A DNA stretch of 64,000 nucleotides from Laetmonice hystrix (lineage: Eukaryota), in contig OZ249447.1 of the NCBI GenBank assembly GCA_965235115.1, positions 1,860,001 to 1,924,000 of the forward strand, in the 5' to 3' direction. Made by a program: the position numbers. Each line of letters begins with the position of its first letter. The stretch's first letter is position 1. Below are positions 42,001-57,000 of this stretch, piece after piece.

Positions 42001-45000
42001 CAATCATCGGTTTCAAGAAAACCGGGTTCTCTGTTCTGTGTCAGCCATTTTATGCTCTCAGTGTACTCGGCATTTAGACCATTAGACACATGGCATGCTT
42101 TCCTGCAGCTTTAGGCTTACACTAAGTCTTGTAACAATCTAATTAAAATTAGATCTTAGTTATTTCGCATGCGCTACATACTAGGATCTAACGGCATCCC
42201 GTATGGGGTCACCTCAGGCTGACCTTTGACCCAGATTCAAGTGTGCCTACGAGCGCACACCGAAGATTTCGTAGGCGGCTTGTTGATTGGCTGAATCCCG
42301 AGGTCAACCTGAGGTGACCCCTAATGGGATGTCCTTAGATCTAGACGTATGGAGCGCAGCCAGCACCGACACAGCCGAGAGAGACGCGGAATACCAAGAT
42401 CTAATTTTAATTAGATTGACACTTGTAAGTGCTATCTGGGAGACCATTCACCTCACCATCATCCATGTTGGTACTTCTATCCGATATTGCACGTTACGAT
42501 AAGAACATAAATCACTAAATTAAAAACCGAGAAATGGCTCCGTGTCTGGGACCGCTTGGCCAGTATCGTCCTTGAGCTCCTTGTCTGGGACCGCTTGGCC
42601 AGTATCGTCCTTGAGCTCCTTGTCTGGGACCGCTTGGCCAGTATCGTCCTTGAGCTACTTGTCTGGGACCGCTTGGCCAGTATCGTCCTTGAGCTCCTTG
42701 TCTGGGACCGTTTGACTAGTATCGTCCTTGAGCTCCGCGTGTCTGGGACCGCTTGGCCAGTATCGTCCTTGAGCTCCGCGTGTCTGGGACCGCTTGGACA
42801 GTATCGTCCTTGAGCTCCTTGTCTGGGACCGCTTGGCCAGTATCGTCCTTGAGCTCCTTGTCTGGGACCGTTTGACTAGTATCGTCCTTGAGCTCCGCGT
42901 GTCTGGGACCGTTCGACTAGTATCGTCCTTGAGCTCCGCGTGTCTGGGACTGTTCGACTAGTATCGTCCTTGAGCTCTGCGTGTCTGGAACCGCTTGGCC
43001 AGTATCGTCCTTGAGCAAACGTACGTAATCAGTTGAAGGACGATTGTTCTATATGAAGTTCGACAGGAAATCGTCACATGTGGTACGATGATATTGTATC
43101 ACTGACGTCATCAGTCTGATATGACGTCACTGACGTTGCGCAGAATGTTTGCGGTTGTCATGGTAGCGGGATCGTCCGTATTCGTCATAACGAGGGCGAA
43201 TTTAAAGAGTACAACGACGTAAGAGAGGATGAGGCCGAACACCTGCAATCATACAGCCAGTAAATGTCAACACAACAACTGTTCGTTAATATAAACCGAC
43301 GACAACAAACTTTGGAATATAAGGTAACGTTTTTCTTTCTTTCTTTATGTTTTTGTTGCCCCAAACGATTGAGGTGTTTGTGAGGGGACGATAGTAGGGC
43401 GCATGCGTCGTCTCCATGCTCCAACCCATGCACGGCTGGCGGATGTGAGAGGACTTCCGGCAGGCAATTCTTCTGAAGTTTATTTTGACTGATGGTCGTG
43501 CTTTGTTGTCCGCCAATAGCCTCTCTATGGAGGCGCGCTAATTACATTGAGCTGAAGGCTCAGCCAGGAGGGTGTTTAGACTGCTCGGAATGGCTAATGG
43601 GACTATCCGGAATGGTGGTCACATGTAACATGTACAAGTATAACTGCTCGAGGTGGTAAGACGCCATTGCTTTCTGTGGTGACAAATATCTCACTGCGCA
43701 ACTTACACCCGTCTAATTGGTGCTTTCCCAGCATAATTATAACAAAAACTACTACGCCATAATGTACAAACCGATAATGTAGTTACCAACAACGTAATTA
43801 CTTATCAAATGTAAAATACAAAATCTAATTACAAAGGAAATGTAAAGGATCCTCACGCTTTTTCAAAGTAACTGGGCTGATTTATTTCGTTGTAAAAGCT
43901 ACACAAAAGTTGGCTTCCCATATAATCATTGTATTTAGCTATGTGTAAAATGATGTGCCCTGTTTTATAGATTATGTTCAATCCATGCAGATGAAATGAG
44001 TCTAGGTTTATCGAATATTTATAACCCATATAATCACTCCGCGTCCTGTATGAAACCACTCTGAACAAGACTTCCCCCTCAGGCTACTACCACAGCCTCA
44101 CCCTGGCTCCGACAAATAAACAGGACACATGCACTCTGAACAACACTTCCCCCTCAGGCTACTACCACAGCCTCACCCTGGCTCCGACAAATAAACAGGA
44201 CACATCCAATCTGAACAAGACTTCCCCCTCAGGATACTACCACAGCCTCACCCTGGCTCCAACAAATAAACAGGACACATGCACTCTGAACAAGACTTCC
44301 CCCTCAGGCTACTACCACAGCCTCACCCTGGCTCCGACAAATAAACAGGACACATGCACTCTGAACAAGACTTCCCCCTCAGGCTACTACCACAGCCTCA
44401 CCCTGGCTCCAACAAATAAACAGGACACATGCACTCTGAACAAGACTTCCCCCTCAGGTTACTACCACAGCCTCACCCTGGCTCCGACAAATAAACAGGA
44501 CACATCCACTCTGAACAAGACTTCCCCCTCAGGTTACTACCACAGCCTCACCCTGGCTCCGACAAATAAACAGGACACATGCACTCTGAACAAGACTTCC
44601 CCCTCAGGCTACTACCACAGCCTCACCCTGGCTTCGACAAATAAACAGGACTCATGCACTCTGAACAAGACTTCCCCCTCAGGCTACTACCACAGCCTCA
44701 CCCTCGCTCCGACAAATAAACAGGACTCATGCACTCTGAACAAGACTTCCCCCTCAGGTTACTACCACAGCCTCACCCTGGCTTCGACAAATAAACAGGA
44801 CTCATGCACTCTGAACAAGACTTCCCCCTCAGGCTACTACCACAGCCTCACCCTGGCTTCGACAAATAAACAGGACTCATGCACTCTGAACAAGACTTCC
44901 CCCTCAGGCTACTACCACAGCCTCACCCTCGCTCCGACAAATAAACAGGACTCATGCACTCTGAACAAGACTTCCCCCTCAGGCTACTACCACAGCCTCA

Positions 45001-54000: not shown

Positions 54001-57000
54001 CAATAAATACTTTATAGTTTCGGTTTGATAGGAGAAGACGAGAGATGTTTGTACAACAAATACTTTATAGTTTCGGTTTGATAGGTGAAGACGAGAGAGG
54101 TTTGTACAATAAATACTTTATAGTTTCGGTTTGATAGGAGAAGACGAGAGATGTTTGTACAATAAATACTTTATAGTTTCGGTTTGATAGGAGAAGACGA
54201 GAGAGGTTTGTACAATAAATACTTTATAGTTTCGGTTTGATAGGTGAAGACGAGAGAGGTTTGTACAATAAATACTTTATAGTTTCGGTTTGATAGGAGA
54301 AGACGAGAGATGTTTGTACAATAAATACTTTATAGTTTCGGTTTGATAGGAGAAGACGAGAGAGGTTTGTACAATAAATACTTTATAGTTTCGGTTTGAT
54401 AGGAGAAGACGAGAGAGGTTTGTACAATAGTTTATAGTTTGGGTTTGAAAGGAGAAGACGAGAGAGGCATGTATTCCCATGTATACGGAGTCTGTCATTG
54501 TGAACGTCACCTACAAACTGTAGGAATATCTTTCAAAATTTAACACTTTGCGTGTAAGAAGAAGTAAATGACGAACGTACCTGAACAGATATACCCTCCT
54601 GGGTAGTACAGGAACGTAGGTCAACATCGTGGATGATAGTTTTGGGGACTTTAGCCTGAAAGAAATCGGCGACGACTGTAAATGATTGCGTGCAGTCAGG
54701 TCCTCAAATATTGTTCTGGAATAATTTTCTTTTAAACATGAAAACAAAATCTGATACGTTCTCTATCATTCTGCCATGAAGTAAACTAAAACATATTTGA
54801 ATGTTTTAGCTGTTCGTTGTTACTGAGAATATGATTAATATCGATACCTACCGCTGCGCACAGCGACGCTCCCGCCACAGTAATGCAGACGACATGCATG
54901 ATGGCGATAATAAAGAACACTACACTGGCAGCTAACGCCATGGCGTCTTGGGCAAAGAGTTCTTCATTTTTGATAAGTACAAATATAAAGGCACATATTG
55001 TCGGAATATCAAACAGGTAGGTCAATAAGTTAAATAGCGACAACATGTCGTCGAGAGTATCAGTCACTTTACACAACAGCAAATGTCGCTGTCTGTTACC
55101 CTCAATGTCAGATCCAGTTCCGAGGTGAGGGCGCCCCCTGGTGTCAGGGGTAACTATTGACGACCGGAAGCCGGACGAAAACTCCTGATACTCCATTTTC
55201 AGCAAAACGCAGATGATAACGAGCACGATGTTCGGCTGTATCCAACAGAATGCGATGTAATAATGAAATACGAAGTAGATAGCCGCCACATAGATGGGAA
55301 CAGGGCCTTCTAGATTAAAGGGCATCAGAAACATTCGAGTAAACTCCGGTAACTTGATGCTAAATAGAACTATCCCGACTACAGCGAACGAGAGAATCAT
55401 GACGTTAACTGACATTGCTACTCGACATGCGAATCCTTTCAGCTTCTCCGTCGGTACTCCCCTGTATCTATTTTTATATGACTGCCACAGGCGCATGAAC
55501 CGACCGATGTGTCTGTAGTTACTGATGATAAAGACGGTGACACTGAGAGCACACTGAAGGTTCCAGATGTGGATGACTATCTTCATGAAGAGCCGGGTAC
55601 CATGAGAGTCAGGCTCCACGTAGGCGGCAAAGTATCTGAGAGCGTTGAACCAGAGGAGGCAGAGAACCATGACACAGTAAAATGTACAGAATTGAAACCA
55701 GCGCCCCTCACGGTCGCGGAGAACGAGTCCGTAACATTTGAGGCTGATGAAGAGTGGTCTCATGACCTTACCGATACTAGCCGTGCTGTCCTCTCCTGGA
55801 GCTTCTCGTACTCCTGGAGGAACCATGGAGTGACAACTGCGATCAGAGCTTCGCTCAGACGTATCCGAAGTTCCTCTGCTCTGAGAGAGAAGTGGTGTAC
55901 CTTGTTGGGGGAGGTGTGTTGCCGCTGGTAACGGGGTCGGGATGGTAGGGATCCGGTGCACGACTTTGCCATTCACGTTTACGTATGTGTGCCCGTGCCT
56001 CGTAGTCATTTTTTGCCCGTCCGGCATTTGTGGGAAGTTTCATCTGACTGGGGTTTTTACCCAATCAGGAGGCAGGTAACAAAACATGGGCGGGCCTCTC
56101 CAAGTGAAGGCCTTGGCGTGTGGGTGTGTGTTTGTGTGTGTGAAACGGTATGTGAACACGTTTCTCATTGGTTCCTCGCCAGGACAGCACAATTAAAGGA
56201 CTTCCGGTCAAGAAACGTATGCGTGAAAGGCAAAAAGCCTAGAGCCGCACCCTACTCTCAGCGTGTCTCCTTACTGGAAATCTTGCTCCCAATGAAGATC
56301 CTGAAAGCAAGCAAAGGAATCACACGTTAAGAAAGGTTTAGGACATAAAGGTCAGATGGCAATTTTGCAAAATTGCAAGCAAACCTTATAAAATATGAAC
56401 GCCCGTGCTGATTACAGTTTTTAACGGATTGGGGCGATTCATTTTAACAGTAAATAAAACTTCTGCTTCGTCAGCATGTTTCTCTCCCGACCGTTCCCAT
56501 AGCTGCAGACAGCGCTGACAACTAATAGGTAGTACTGTTATAATTGTTCAGCAATCCAGCGAAGTGGTCTTGTAAATCGAGTCGCAGTCAAAGTAAGCAT
56601 GAAAGAGAGTAACAATACAAGCAGCAGAGAATACTTTGGGGAGAGTAGAAAGTAAGCTAAGTGGATAAAACGGGGCATTACAACATCCAAGGAATTAACA
56701 GAAGTAGAAATTTGACATTTGATCAGCATTCGATATACTGTAGTACATTTCTTTATACAGTGCTGTCACTGCATCAAGAGAATCACCGCGATGTCGAATA
56801 AAGCGCGACCATTTTGTTTGAGAGTTATTAAATATTAAAATATTGCGATTCGACTGATAGTCCGTAAGACTGATACTTGAAACTGTCATAACATAGAGTT
56901 TCTAGGGTAACGGAGTAAGTGGTGTTGCTAGGTTACCGTCTAATCACTGTGGCACAAAGTCAGAAATCATCAAGTCGGTACAGCACTGTCAAGATGGATC

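What the first reader, a model, noticed from the sequence alone, without database searches (positions are those of the whole stretch)
43111..56027. Complete non-insect gustatory-receptor-like channel hidden across 12.9 kb of repeat-filled introns
Seen: four exons with canonical GT-AG sites, all three introns phase 0 (196 bp, 3.8 kb, 7.4 kb), giving 488 aa. Two exons are absent from the ORF track. Established: three C-terminal phase-0 introns are the ancestral hallmark of the insect Gr/Or superfamily and of GRLs in other animals, whose functions are mostly unknown. The C-terminal NVS sequon fits the N-in/C-out topology. Inference: an intact, single-copy (in this window) ligand-gated channel gene that automated annotation could easily truncate.
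[Added by the scan's program, not by the reader: the finding's places include an assembly gap (unread letters, written N; its length is only estimated) at 50776 to 50930. Whether the letters on both sides are continuous or in frame is not known: test that first.]
Basis: partly seen in the sequence, partly recalled or inferred. Interest (0 to 1): 0.65.

Follow-up and report, generated by a model that had tools for sequence, protein, structure and literature searches.

The report
Intact four-exon gustatory-receptor-like gene
This is a complete gene of the insect-type taste/smell receptor channel family whose last three small exons are spread over 12 kb of repeat-filled introns, a well-known kind of gene that databases hold only in truncated form.

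Summary
On the minus strand, four exons (56027-54852, 54655-54581, 50737-50654, 43242-43111) give 392+25+28+43 = 488 codons. All three introns are GT-AG and phase 0. The N gap (50776-50930) lies inside intron 2, 38 nt before exon 3, so reading frame is not at stake.

- **Family:** exon 1 alone passes Pfam 7tm_7 (39.1 bits against a cut-off of 26.6). Its profile finds Gr64a, MhOR5 and Orco. Its AlphaFold model matches only insect OR/GR structures in the top 24.
- **Small exons:** a profile of nine full-length relatives' tails, run against all 3,932 open pieces of the window, ranks exons 3, 4 and 2 first, in collinear order.
- **Pore helix:** exon 4 carries the TM7 motif (SYVVVLFKF), followed by a conserved N-glycosylation site.
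- **Databases:** the closest relatives on record (89%, 73%, 73% identity) are unspliced calls that stop just past exon 1.

It is a new member of a known family. Channel function is inferred. The organism is unknown, so "non-insect" is untested. One oddity: lysine replaces the gate glutamine. The joined protein was not searched or folded.

The parts
54852..56027 (-). Exon 1, 392 codons. It holds a disordered cytosolic N-terminus (residues 1-84) and transmembrane helices 1-6. The start codon is at 56027 or, more likely, at 56009.
   Evidence: Translation. Pfam 7tm_7 at 7.4e-10, 39.1 bits, profile positions 2-290 of 370. AlphaFold pLDDT 84.2 and pTM 0.79, with residues 1-84 unstructured. Six hydrophobic segments. 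An in-frame stop lies four codons upstream of 56027.
54656..54851 (-). Intron 1, 196 nt, phase 0, GT-AG.
   Evidence: The same boundary shows in relatives: 81 of 101 representatives have V (57 of them VS) right after it, which is what an unspliced GT donor would be translated as.
54581..54655 (-). Exon 2, 25 codons, cytosolic stretch after TM6.
   Evidence: Translation. Third-best piece of the window in the tail-profile scan, E 0.079, profile positions 12-38. Short-BLAST match of 9 of 13 residues to P0105, E 0.003. Same length as the matching stretch of P0019. No BLASTP hit to P0019 itself.
50738..54580 (-). Intron 2, 3843 nt as written, phase 0, GT-AG. It holds the assembly gap at 50776-50930 and a 2.2-kb array of 53-nt units at 52279-54467.
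50654..50737 (-). Exon 3, 28 codons, the cytosolic part of helix 7 (TM7a region).
   Evidence: Translation. 19 of 27 residues identical to P0019, E 3e-12. Best piece of the whole window in the tail-profile scan, E 1.1e-10.
43243..50653 (-). Intron 3, 7411 nt, phase 0, GT-AG, about half tandem repeats. It lies directly before the exon for the pore helix.
   Evidence: In the relative's open frame P0157, homology starts exactly at this boundary.
43111..43242 (-). Exon 4, 43 codons plus TGA. It holds pore helix TM7b with the family motif, then a 20-residue extracellular tail with one NVS sequon.
   Evidence: Translation. Motif SYVVVLFKF fits (T/S)Yhhhhh(Q/K/E)(F/L/M) as given in PMC7746228. 66% identity to P0157 over the whole exon. 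12 of 16 residues identical to P0019. Second-best piece in the profile scan.

Best explanation
The region holds one intact protein-coding gene on the minus strand. Four exons encode a 482- or 488-residue member of the gustatory-receptor / gustatory-receptor-like family (Pfam 7tm_7, the '7TMIC' fold of insect Grs, Ors and Orco).

Shown here:
- the exon-intron structure;
- family membership by sequence for exon 1;
- an OR/GR-type fold for helices 1-6;
- homology of each small exon to the tails of full-length relatives;
- the TM7 motif;
- conservation of the gene in at least three other genomes at 73-89% identity.

Inferred from the family, where solved structures and recordings exist for BmGr9, Gr43a, Gr64a, Orco and MhOR5:
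- The protein sits N-terminus in, C-terminus out.
- Four subunits assemble around a central pore lined by helix 7b.
- A small ligand binding in the pocket among helices 1-6 moves helix 5 and then helix 7b.
- The terminal phenylalanine plug then swings out and opens the channel.

Two features set it apart from lineage-specific chemoreceptor arrays, and both are only suggestive. It stands alone in 64 kb, and it is slowly evolving (244 and 239 of 308 core residues are kept in the two 73% relatives). These point to a conserved, housekeeping-like sensory or developmental role rather than a fast-evolving tastant receptor.
For: - **Structure read directly:**
- **Pfam:** 7tm_7 at 39.1 bits against a cut-off of 26.6, with exon 1 alone.
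- **Family size:** phmmer against 1.84 billion representatives gives 286 relatives at E <= 1e-3 and 94 at <= 1e-10.
- **Solved structures by sequence:** the profile of 140 relatives (A1) scores Gr64a 5e-16, MhOR5 2.6e-5, Orco 1.2e-4 and Gr43a 0.012.
- **Fold:** AlphaFold of exon 1 gives pLDDT 84.2. Foldseek ranks 1-24 are all insect OR, Orco or GR chains at probability 1.00 and TM 0.47-0.60 (0.38 for one short chain). From rank 25 on, probability is <= 0.21 and TM < 0.2.
- **Small exons:** a tail profile built only from nine relatives ranks E3, E4 and E2 as the top three of 3,932 open pieces in all six frames, in collinear order.
- **Transcript-like relative:** P0019 (504 aa, encoded on a 2,080-nt contig, so probably a transcript) has the same 25 + 28 residue spacing and near-identical TM7.
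- **Exon 4 boundary:** P0157 comes from a contig of the same length as that of the 73% relative P0006. It matches E4 at 66%, starting exactly at the exon boundary, and keeps the sequon as NVT.
- **Topology:** six hydrophobic segments in E1 and one in E4. K+R make up 21 of 135 residues in the proposed inner loops against 5 of 79 in the outer ones. 9 of 10 relatives' tails carry N-x-S/T after TM7.
- **Gate roles of the motif residues:** PMC11100771, passages seen.
Against: - No transcript evidence for this locus was available.
- The packing of helix 7 in the window's own protein is therefore untested.
- The stand-in model of P0019 has pLDDT of only 47-70 over its last 95 residues, and rmsd of about 10-11 A to the solved structures.
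- phmmer of exon 1 alone against PDB sequences found nothing; only the profile did.
- E2 has no BLASTP match to P0019, and its profile E-value is weak on its own (0.079).
- The gate glutamine is lysine. In MhOr5 a change of that glutamine to arginine or alanine abolished agonist-evoked calcium influx (PMC11100771), so cation conduction cannot be taken for granted.
- The ligand, the partners and the tissue are all unknown.
Confidence: 0.8

Rival explanations
1. The gene is a real family member, but it is not a ligand-gated cation channel of the insect type. The natural lysine at the gate position would change selectivity (for example towards anions), block calcium flux, or mark a protein with a non-conducting or developmental role.
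For: - K stands at motif position 8 in E4, in the relative's piece P0157 and in P0019. K is also found in P0043 and P0138. That makes 3 of the 9 full-length relatives, plus P0157.
- MhOr5 Q467A and Q467R abolished agonist-evoked calcium influx (PMC11100771, passage).
- Non-insect GRLs are reported to be expressed early in development, and one may act in body patterning (PMC7746228 introduction).
- High conservation and single-copy state.
Against: - K is listed as an accepted variant of the motif, (Q/K/E), in PMC7746228.
- The other functional motif positions are kept in kind: the hydroxyl residue, Y, the middle hydrophobic residue and the final F.
- No functional data exist either way.
Confidence: 0.2
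2. The 3' end of the model is wrong. Either transcripts use another last exon, or a further small coding exon lies hidden in the assembly gap.
For: There is no transcript evidence. The gap lies 38 nt from E3, and its content and length are unknown.
Against: - No other piece of the 64-kb window resembles the family's tail: the best other piece scores E 2.6, and tblastn finds no second copy.
- E2 and E3 tile the profile without a hole and have the same lengths as in P0019.
- The E4 boundary and sequon are conserved in P0157.
Confidence: 0.06
3. The scaffold is misjoined at the gap. Exons 1-2 and exons 3-4 would then belong to different copies or haplotypes of the gene.
For: A gap of estimated length sits between E2 and E3. 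The surrounding DNA is rich in minisatellites, which are hard to assemble.
Against: Order, strand and phase of the exons are all as expected for one gene, and there is no duplicate of any exon in the window. Even if the join were wrong, both halves would come from the same kind of gene.
Confidence: 0.05
4. The gene is a recently dead or never-expressed copy (a pseudogene) that merely remains open.
For: There is no expression evidence. No poly(A) signal was looked for beyond the 160 nt read after the stop.
Against: - All four exons are open, with consensus splice sites.
- The 308-residue core is kept at 280, 244 and 239 of 308 residues in three relatives whose frames are also open.
- E4 is conserved up to the exon boundary.
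Confidence: 0.04

Closest known systems
Insect gustatory receptors with solved structures (Drosophila Gr64a and Gr43a, Bombyx BmGr9)
   Same: - Pfam 7tm_7.
- The profile of exon-1 relatives hits Gr64a at 5e-16.
- The fold of helices 1-6 matches at TM 0.50-0.59 with probability 1.00.
- TM7 motif with hydroxyl residue, Y, hydrophobic run and final F.
[quoted passage not shown]
   Different: - Only 10-14% identity in the structural alignments.
- K in place of the gate Q.
- An 84-residue disordered N-terminus with a conserved peptide.
- A glycosylation sequon in the C-terminal tail.
- Ligand unknown.
Non-insect gustatory receptor-like (GRL) genes, as described for Cnidaria, Placozoa, Echinodermata, Hemichordata, Mollusca and Annelida (PMC7746228 and PMC5850775; passages seen)
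   Same: Same defining set: seven helices with the N-terminus inside, the TM7 motif including the K variant, conserved 3' introns, small gene families and unknown function.
   Different: Whether the window comes from one of these phyla could not be established. The gene was not placed in a tree with named GRLs, because no named sequences were available.
Orco and odorant receptors (Apocrypta Orco 6c70, MhOR5 7lic, AaegOR10 and AgamOR28 complexes)
   Same: These are the best Foldseek matches of the exon-1 model (8v00_A at E 1.2e-4, TM 0.58). Profile hits are MhOR5 2.6e-5 and Orco 1.2e-4.
   Different: The sequence profile is far closer to Gr64a than to the Ors. The TM7 motif is of the Gr type.

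Membership tests
Gr/GRL superfamily (Pfam PF08395 7tm_7; 7TMIC) | Sequence match to the family model above the curated cut-off | tested here: met
   Exon 1 alone scores 39.1 bits against a cut-off of 26.6, E 7.4e-10, profile positions 2-290 of 370. The profile of relatives hits Gr64a at 5e-16. Exons 2-4 alone give no Pfam hit.
Gr/GRL superfamily (Pfam PF08395 7tm_7; 7TMIC) | Seven transmembrane helices | tested here: met
   Six hydrophobic segments in exon 1 and one in exon 4. The AlphaFold model of exon 1 shows the six long helices.
Gr/GRL superfamily (Pfam PF08395 7tm_7; 7TMIC) | Intracellular N-terminus and extracellular C-terminus (opposite to GPCRs) | tested here: inconclusive
   This is indirect evidence only. 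K+R make up 21 of 135 residues in the proposed inner loops against 5 of 79 in the outer ones. The only sequon lies in the C-terminal tail. It is kept as NVT in P0157. Sequons occur in 9 of 10 relatives' tails.
Gr/GRL superfamily (Pfam PF08395 7tm_7; 7TMIC) | TM7 motif (T/S)Yhhhhh(Q/K/E)(F/L/M) | tested here: met
   SYVVVLFKF in exon 4. The motif wording is taken from PMC7746228.
Gr/GRL superfamily (Pfam PF08395 7tm_7; 7TMIC) | [quoted passage not shown] | tested here: met
   Three phase-0 GT-AG introns. The first boundary is shared by 81 of 101 representatives, judged from the V read-through signature. The last boundary is shared by P0157. The literature basis is PMC9998090.
Gr/GRL superfamily (Pfam PF08395 7tm_7; 7TMIC) | 7TMIC fold | tested here: inconclusive
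   The feature is met for helices 1-6: Foldseek ranks 1-24 are all insect OR/Orco/GR chains. Helix 7 of the window's own protein was not folded, because the joined step was left out. The full-length stand-in P0019 hits the same structures at probability 1.00, but its C-terminal pLDDT is 47-70.
Gr/GRL superfamily (Pfam PF08395 7tm_7; 7TMIC) | Tetrameric assembly and ligand-gated ion conduction | not testable with these tools
   This needs expression, recording or a solved structure. No complex prediction was run, for two reasons: four copies exceed the size limit, and the window's own full-length chain may not be joined.
Non-insect GRL (as opposed to an arthropod Gr) | Host organism outside Insecta/Arthropoda | tested here: inconclusive
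The Atlas neighbours of exon 1 are mostly arthropod clusters, as expected for this family. The neighbours of the adjacent GPCR are chordate and mollusc clusters.

The most novel reading that the evidence does not exclude
This gene and its relatives define a slowly evolving, single-copy branch of the receptor family in which the pore-gate glutamine is naturally a lysine. In the open state four positive charges would ring the outer mouth of the pore. Such a channel might be anion-selective, or at least closed to calcium. That would be a different electrical output from every characterised Gr, Or and Orco, and it would serve a conserved rather than a species-specific signal.
Probability: 0.12. 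Interest if true: 0.6.

Novelty: new member of a known kind. Interest (0 to 1): 0.3.

Why it matters
The value is mainly in annotation. The full gene, including the pore helix, is recovered here. The closest database relatives of this gene (395, 432 and 399 aa) and 89 of 101 family representatives stop at or shortly after the first of the three C-terminal introns. Surveys built on such entries therefore miss helix 7 and its motif.

Biologically, a strongly conserved, solitary family member with a lysine at the gate is a reasonable candidate for expression and recording, since functions of such receptors outside insects are mostly unknown (PMC7746228). Nothing here overturns what is known of the family.

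Tried and rejected
- **phmmer of exon 1 against PDB sequences:** no hit. The profile search was needed.
- **Pfam on exons 2-4 alone:** nothing.
- **BLASTP of E2 against P0019:** no alignment.
- **Word-index search with exon 1:** only 3 relatives. With the alignment A2 it gave only 5, none with an informative name.
- **Rfam on the whole window:** 0 matches.
- **Atlas searches:** they gave family leads but no organism.
- **First read-through count:** my first attempt, on alignment A1, failed because only 1 of 139 rows was aligned at the boundary. I redid it from the phmmer coordinates.
- **Saina et al. 2015 and Robertson 2015:** not in the library (search). What I say of them comes from citing papers.
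- **Complex prediction:** considered and not run. A tetramer exceeds the size limit, the window's own chain may not be joined, and a stand-in from another organism would say little.
- **Second gene copy or alternative last exon in the window:** considered and rejected.
- **Human origin of the window:** not suspected.

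
Full report
**1. What is in the sequence**

Read on the minus strand, the region holds four open segments with consensus splice sites.

| Exon | Coordinates | Boundaries | Codons |
|---|---|---|---|
| E1 | 56027..54852 | ends ...GCAGCG\|gtaggt | 392 |
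| E2 | 54655..54581 | tttcag\| ... \|gtacgt | 25 |
| E3 | 50737..50654 | ttgcag\| ... \|gtgagt | 28 |
| E4 | 43242..43111 | ttgcag\| ... TGA | 43 + stop |

- The translations add up to 488 residues.
- The introns are 196, 3843 and 7411 nt, and all lie between codons.
- The open frames around E2 and E4 are 56 and 45 codons. This explains why a list of ORFs of 60 aa or more misses them.
- Tandem arrays fill about 57% of intron 2 and about 52% of intron 3.

**2. The assembly gap**

The run of N at 50776-50930 lies inside intron 2, 38 nt upstream of the E3 acceptor. No reading frame crosses it.

- E2 and E3, on either side of the gap, are in the right order and on the same strand.
- They cover adjoining parts of a profile of the relatives' tails: positions 12-38 and 33-68.
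- They have the same lengths as the matching stretches of the full-length relative P0019.
- No coding piece is therefore missing.
- The length of the gap and the physical correctness of the join cannot be told from the window.

**3. Rule on spliced models**

The joined 488-residue protein was not built, searched or folded. This leaves open how helix 7 packs in this protein itself.

**4. Family of exon 1**

- **Pfam:** exon 1 alone passes 7tm_7 (PF08395) at E 7.4e-10, 39.1 bits against a cut-off of 26.6. It covers profile positions 2-290 of 370, which is the part expected before the C-terminal exons.
- **Representative library:** HMMER over 1.84 billion representatives gives 286 relatives at E <= 1e-3, 94 at <= 1e-10 and 17 at <= 1e-30.
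- **Solved structures by sequence:** the single sequence finds no solved structure. A profile of 140 sequences (A1) does find them: Gr64a 5e-16, MhOR5 2.6e-5, OR28 4.9e-5, Orco 1.2e-4 and Gr43a 0.012.
- **Fold:** AlphaFold of exon 1 with that alignment gives mean pLDDT 84.2 and pTM 0.79. Residues 1-84 are unstructured, followed by six long helices.
- **Fold search:** Foldseek against the PDB puts only insect OR, Orco and GR chains in ranks 1-24, at probability 1.00 and TM 0.47-0.60 (0.38 for one short chain). From rank 25 on, probability falls to 0.21 or less and TM below 0.2.
- **Protein atlas:** it also places exon 1 among 7tm_7 clusters.

**5. The three small exons**

They are too short for Pfam, so I tested them against relatives that carry a spliced tail.

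- Of the 150 listed representatives, 120 reach position 370 of exon 1. Only 14 of those have 60 or more residues after it, and 7 of the 14 carry the strict TM7 motif. Two more carry variants.
- I built a profile from the tails of nine such proteins, with none of the window's own letters in it. I ran it against all 3,932 open pieces of at least 8 codons in the six frames of the whole window.
- The three best pieces were E3 (E 1.1e-10), E4 (0.0013) and E2 (0.079), collinear with the profile. The fourth scored 2.6.

Pairwise comparisons:
- E3 is 19 of 27 identical to P0019.
- E4 is 12 of 16 identical to P0019.
- E2 has no BLASTP hit to P0019. It does share a short motif with P0105 (9 of 13 residues) and P0078 (7 of 9).

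P0019 is encoded on a contig of 2,080 nt. This leaves no room for long introns, so it is probably a transcript. That is an inference.

A search with E4 for longer proteins found P0157, a 100-residue open frame on a contig of the same length as that of the 73% relative P0006. Its homology is 66% over the whole exon, starts exactly at the exon boundary, and keeps the sequon as NVT.

**6. Introns as a family mark**

In the four closest relatives, homology stops exactly at the end of E1. The next residue is V, which is how an unspliced GT donor is translated.

- Over the family, 81 of 101 representatives that reach the boundary have V there, and 57 have VS.
- The exceptions include the nine spliced models.
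- So the first of the three phase-0 introns is widely shared.
- The last intron sits directly before the exon for the pore helix.

What the papers say:
- PMC7746228 names the TM7 motif and conserved 3' introns as the features of animal GRLs.
- PMC5850775 reports shared intron positions and phases between arthropod, cnidarian and placozoan genes.

**7. Topology and pore**

- Hydropathy gives six segments in E1 and one in E4.
- Lysine plus arginine make up 21 of 135 loop residues on the proposed inner side and 5 of 79 on the outer side.
- The only N-x-S/T of the four exons lies in the tail after helix 7. 9 of 10 relatives' tails also carry a sequon there.
- This fits N-in/C-out but is indirect.

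E4 carries SYVVVLFKF, which fits (T/S)Yhhhhh(Q/K/E)(F/L/M) (PMC7746228). In BmGr9 the five key positions of the motif have known roles (PMC11100771, passages):
- a hydroxyl ring;
- a lipid-contacting Y;
- a middle hydrophobic gate;
- a Q that swings into the open pore;
- an F plug.

Four of these are kept in kind here. The Q is a K. The same passage reports that Q467A and Q467R in MhOr5 abolished agonist-evoked calcium influx. The K is shared by P0157 and P0019, and by P0043 and P0138.

**8. Conservation and copy number**

Identity of the closest relatives to exon 1, by region:

| Relative | Residues 85-392 (core) | Residues 26-84 (disordered) |
|---|---|---|
| P0005 | 280 of 308 | 44 of 59 |
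| P0006 | 244 of 308 | 25 of 59 |
| P0007 | 239 of 308 | 27 of 59 |

- A short N-terminal peptide is kept in all three.
- All three are read-throughs that end within 3 to 40 residues after the E1 boundary.
- The next relative, P0008, is at 37%.
- No other copy of any exon lies in the 64 kb.
- The three relatives begin at or two residues before residue 7 of the model. The start is therefore more likely 56009 than 56027.

**9. Mechanism**

*Shown:* an intact gene of the Gr/GRL family with the pore-helix motif.

*Inferred from solved and recorded family members:* a tetramer with a central pore lined by helix 7b, a ligand pocket among helices 1-6, and opening by movement of helix 5 and 7b that swaps the F plug for the neighbouring polar residue.

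*Open:* the ligand, partners, tissue and ion selectivity, the last because of the K.

**10. What stayed unchecked**

- **The organism of the window.** The listing of cluster members was off, Rfam was empty, and the libraries give no taxa. 'Non-insect' is therefore neither confirmed nor refuted.
- **Weak leads on the organism.** The neighbours of the adjacent GPCR exon in the atlas are chordate and mollusc clusters. This is a weak lead only.
- **Papers not held.** Saina et al. 2015 and Robertson 2015 are not in the library. I know them only through citing papers.
- **Other gaps.** There is no transcript data and no DNA of the orthologues, hence no dN/dS.

**11. Verdict**

The finding is real and correctly read. 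It is an ordinary, well-preserved member of a known family whose database relatives are truncated. I rate interest as modest. The lysine at the gate, and the conserved single-copy state, are the only features that might repay an experiment.

Noticed in passing
window 19595-21415 (+): One long exon of a rhodopsin-type GPCR (Pfam 7tm_1, E 8.8e-16). It spans helices 1-6 with a very long third intracellular loop. The frame closes right after helix 6, so helix 7 must lie in a further exon. Atlas neighbours are prostanoid-, histamine- and dopamine-like receptor clusters.
   Followed up: partly
whole window, e.g. 7749-10760, 23117-26071, 57423-59881: The window is packed with minisatellite arrays with periods of 21-75 nt, up to 3 kb long and up to 97% matches. 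They create many long spurious ORFs in both strands.
   Followed up: partly
window 1394-1598: A second assembly gap of 205 N, outside the finding.
   Followed up: no
window 43103-43110 and 43122-43129: Two of the window's five TGACGTCA palindromes lie 19 nt apart around the stop codon of the receptor gene. About 1.5 are expected in the whole window, and 0 of 100 shuffles reached 5. Their meaning is unknown.
   Followed up: partly
window about 55950-56009 (-), residues 7-25 of exon 1: A short peptide at the very N-terminus is conserved in all three close relatives (18-19 of 25 residues), although the following 59 residues are disordered and diverge. It could be a trafficking or regulatory motif.
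   Followed up: no
protein P0105 (relative, 647 aa): This relative holds the C-terminal half of one receptor followed by a complete second one. It is probably a fused gene model of a tandem pair in another species. It contrasts with the solitary gene in this window.
   Followed up: no
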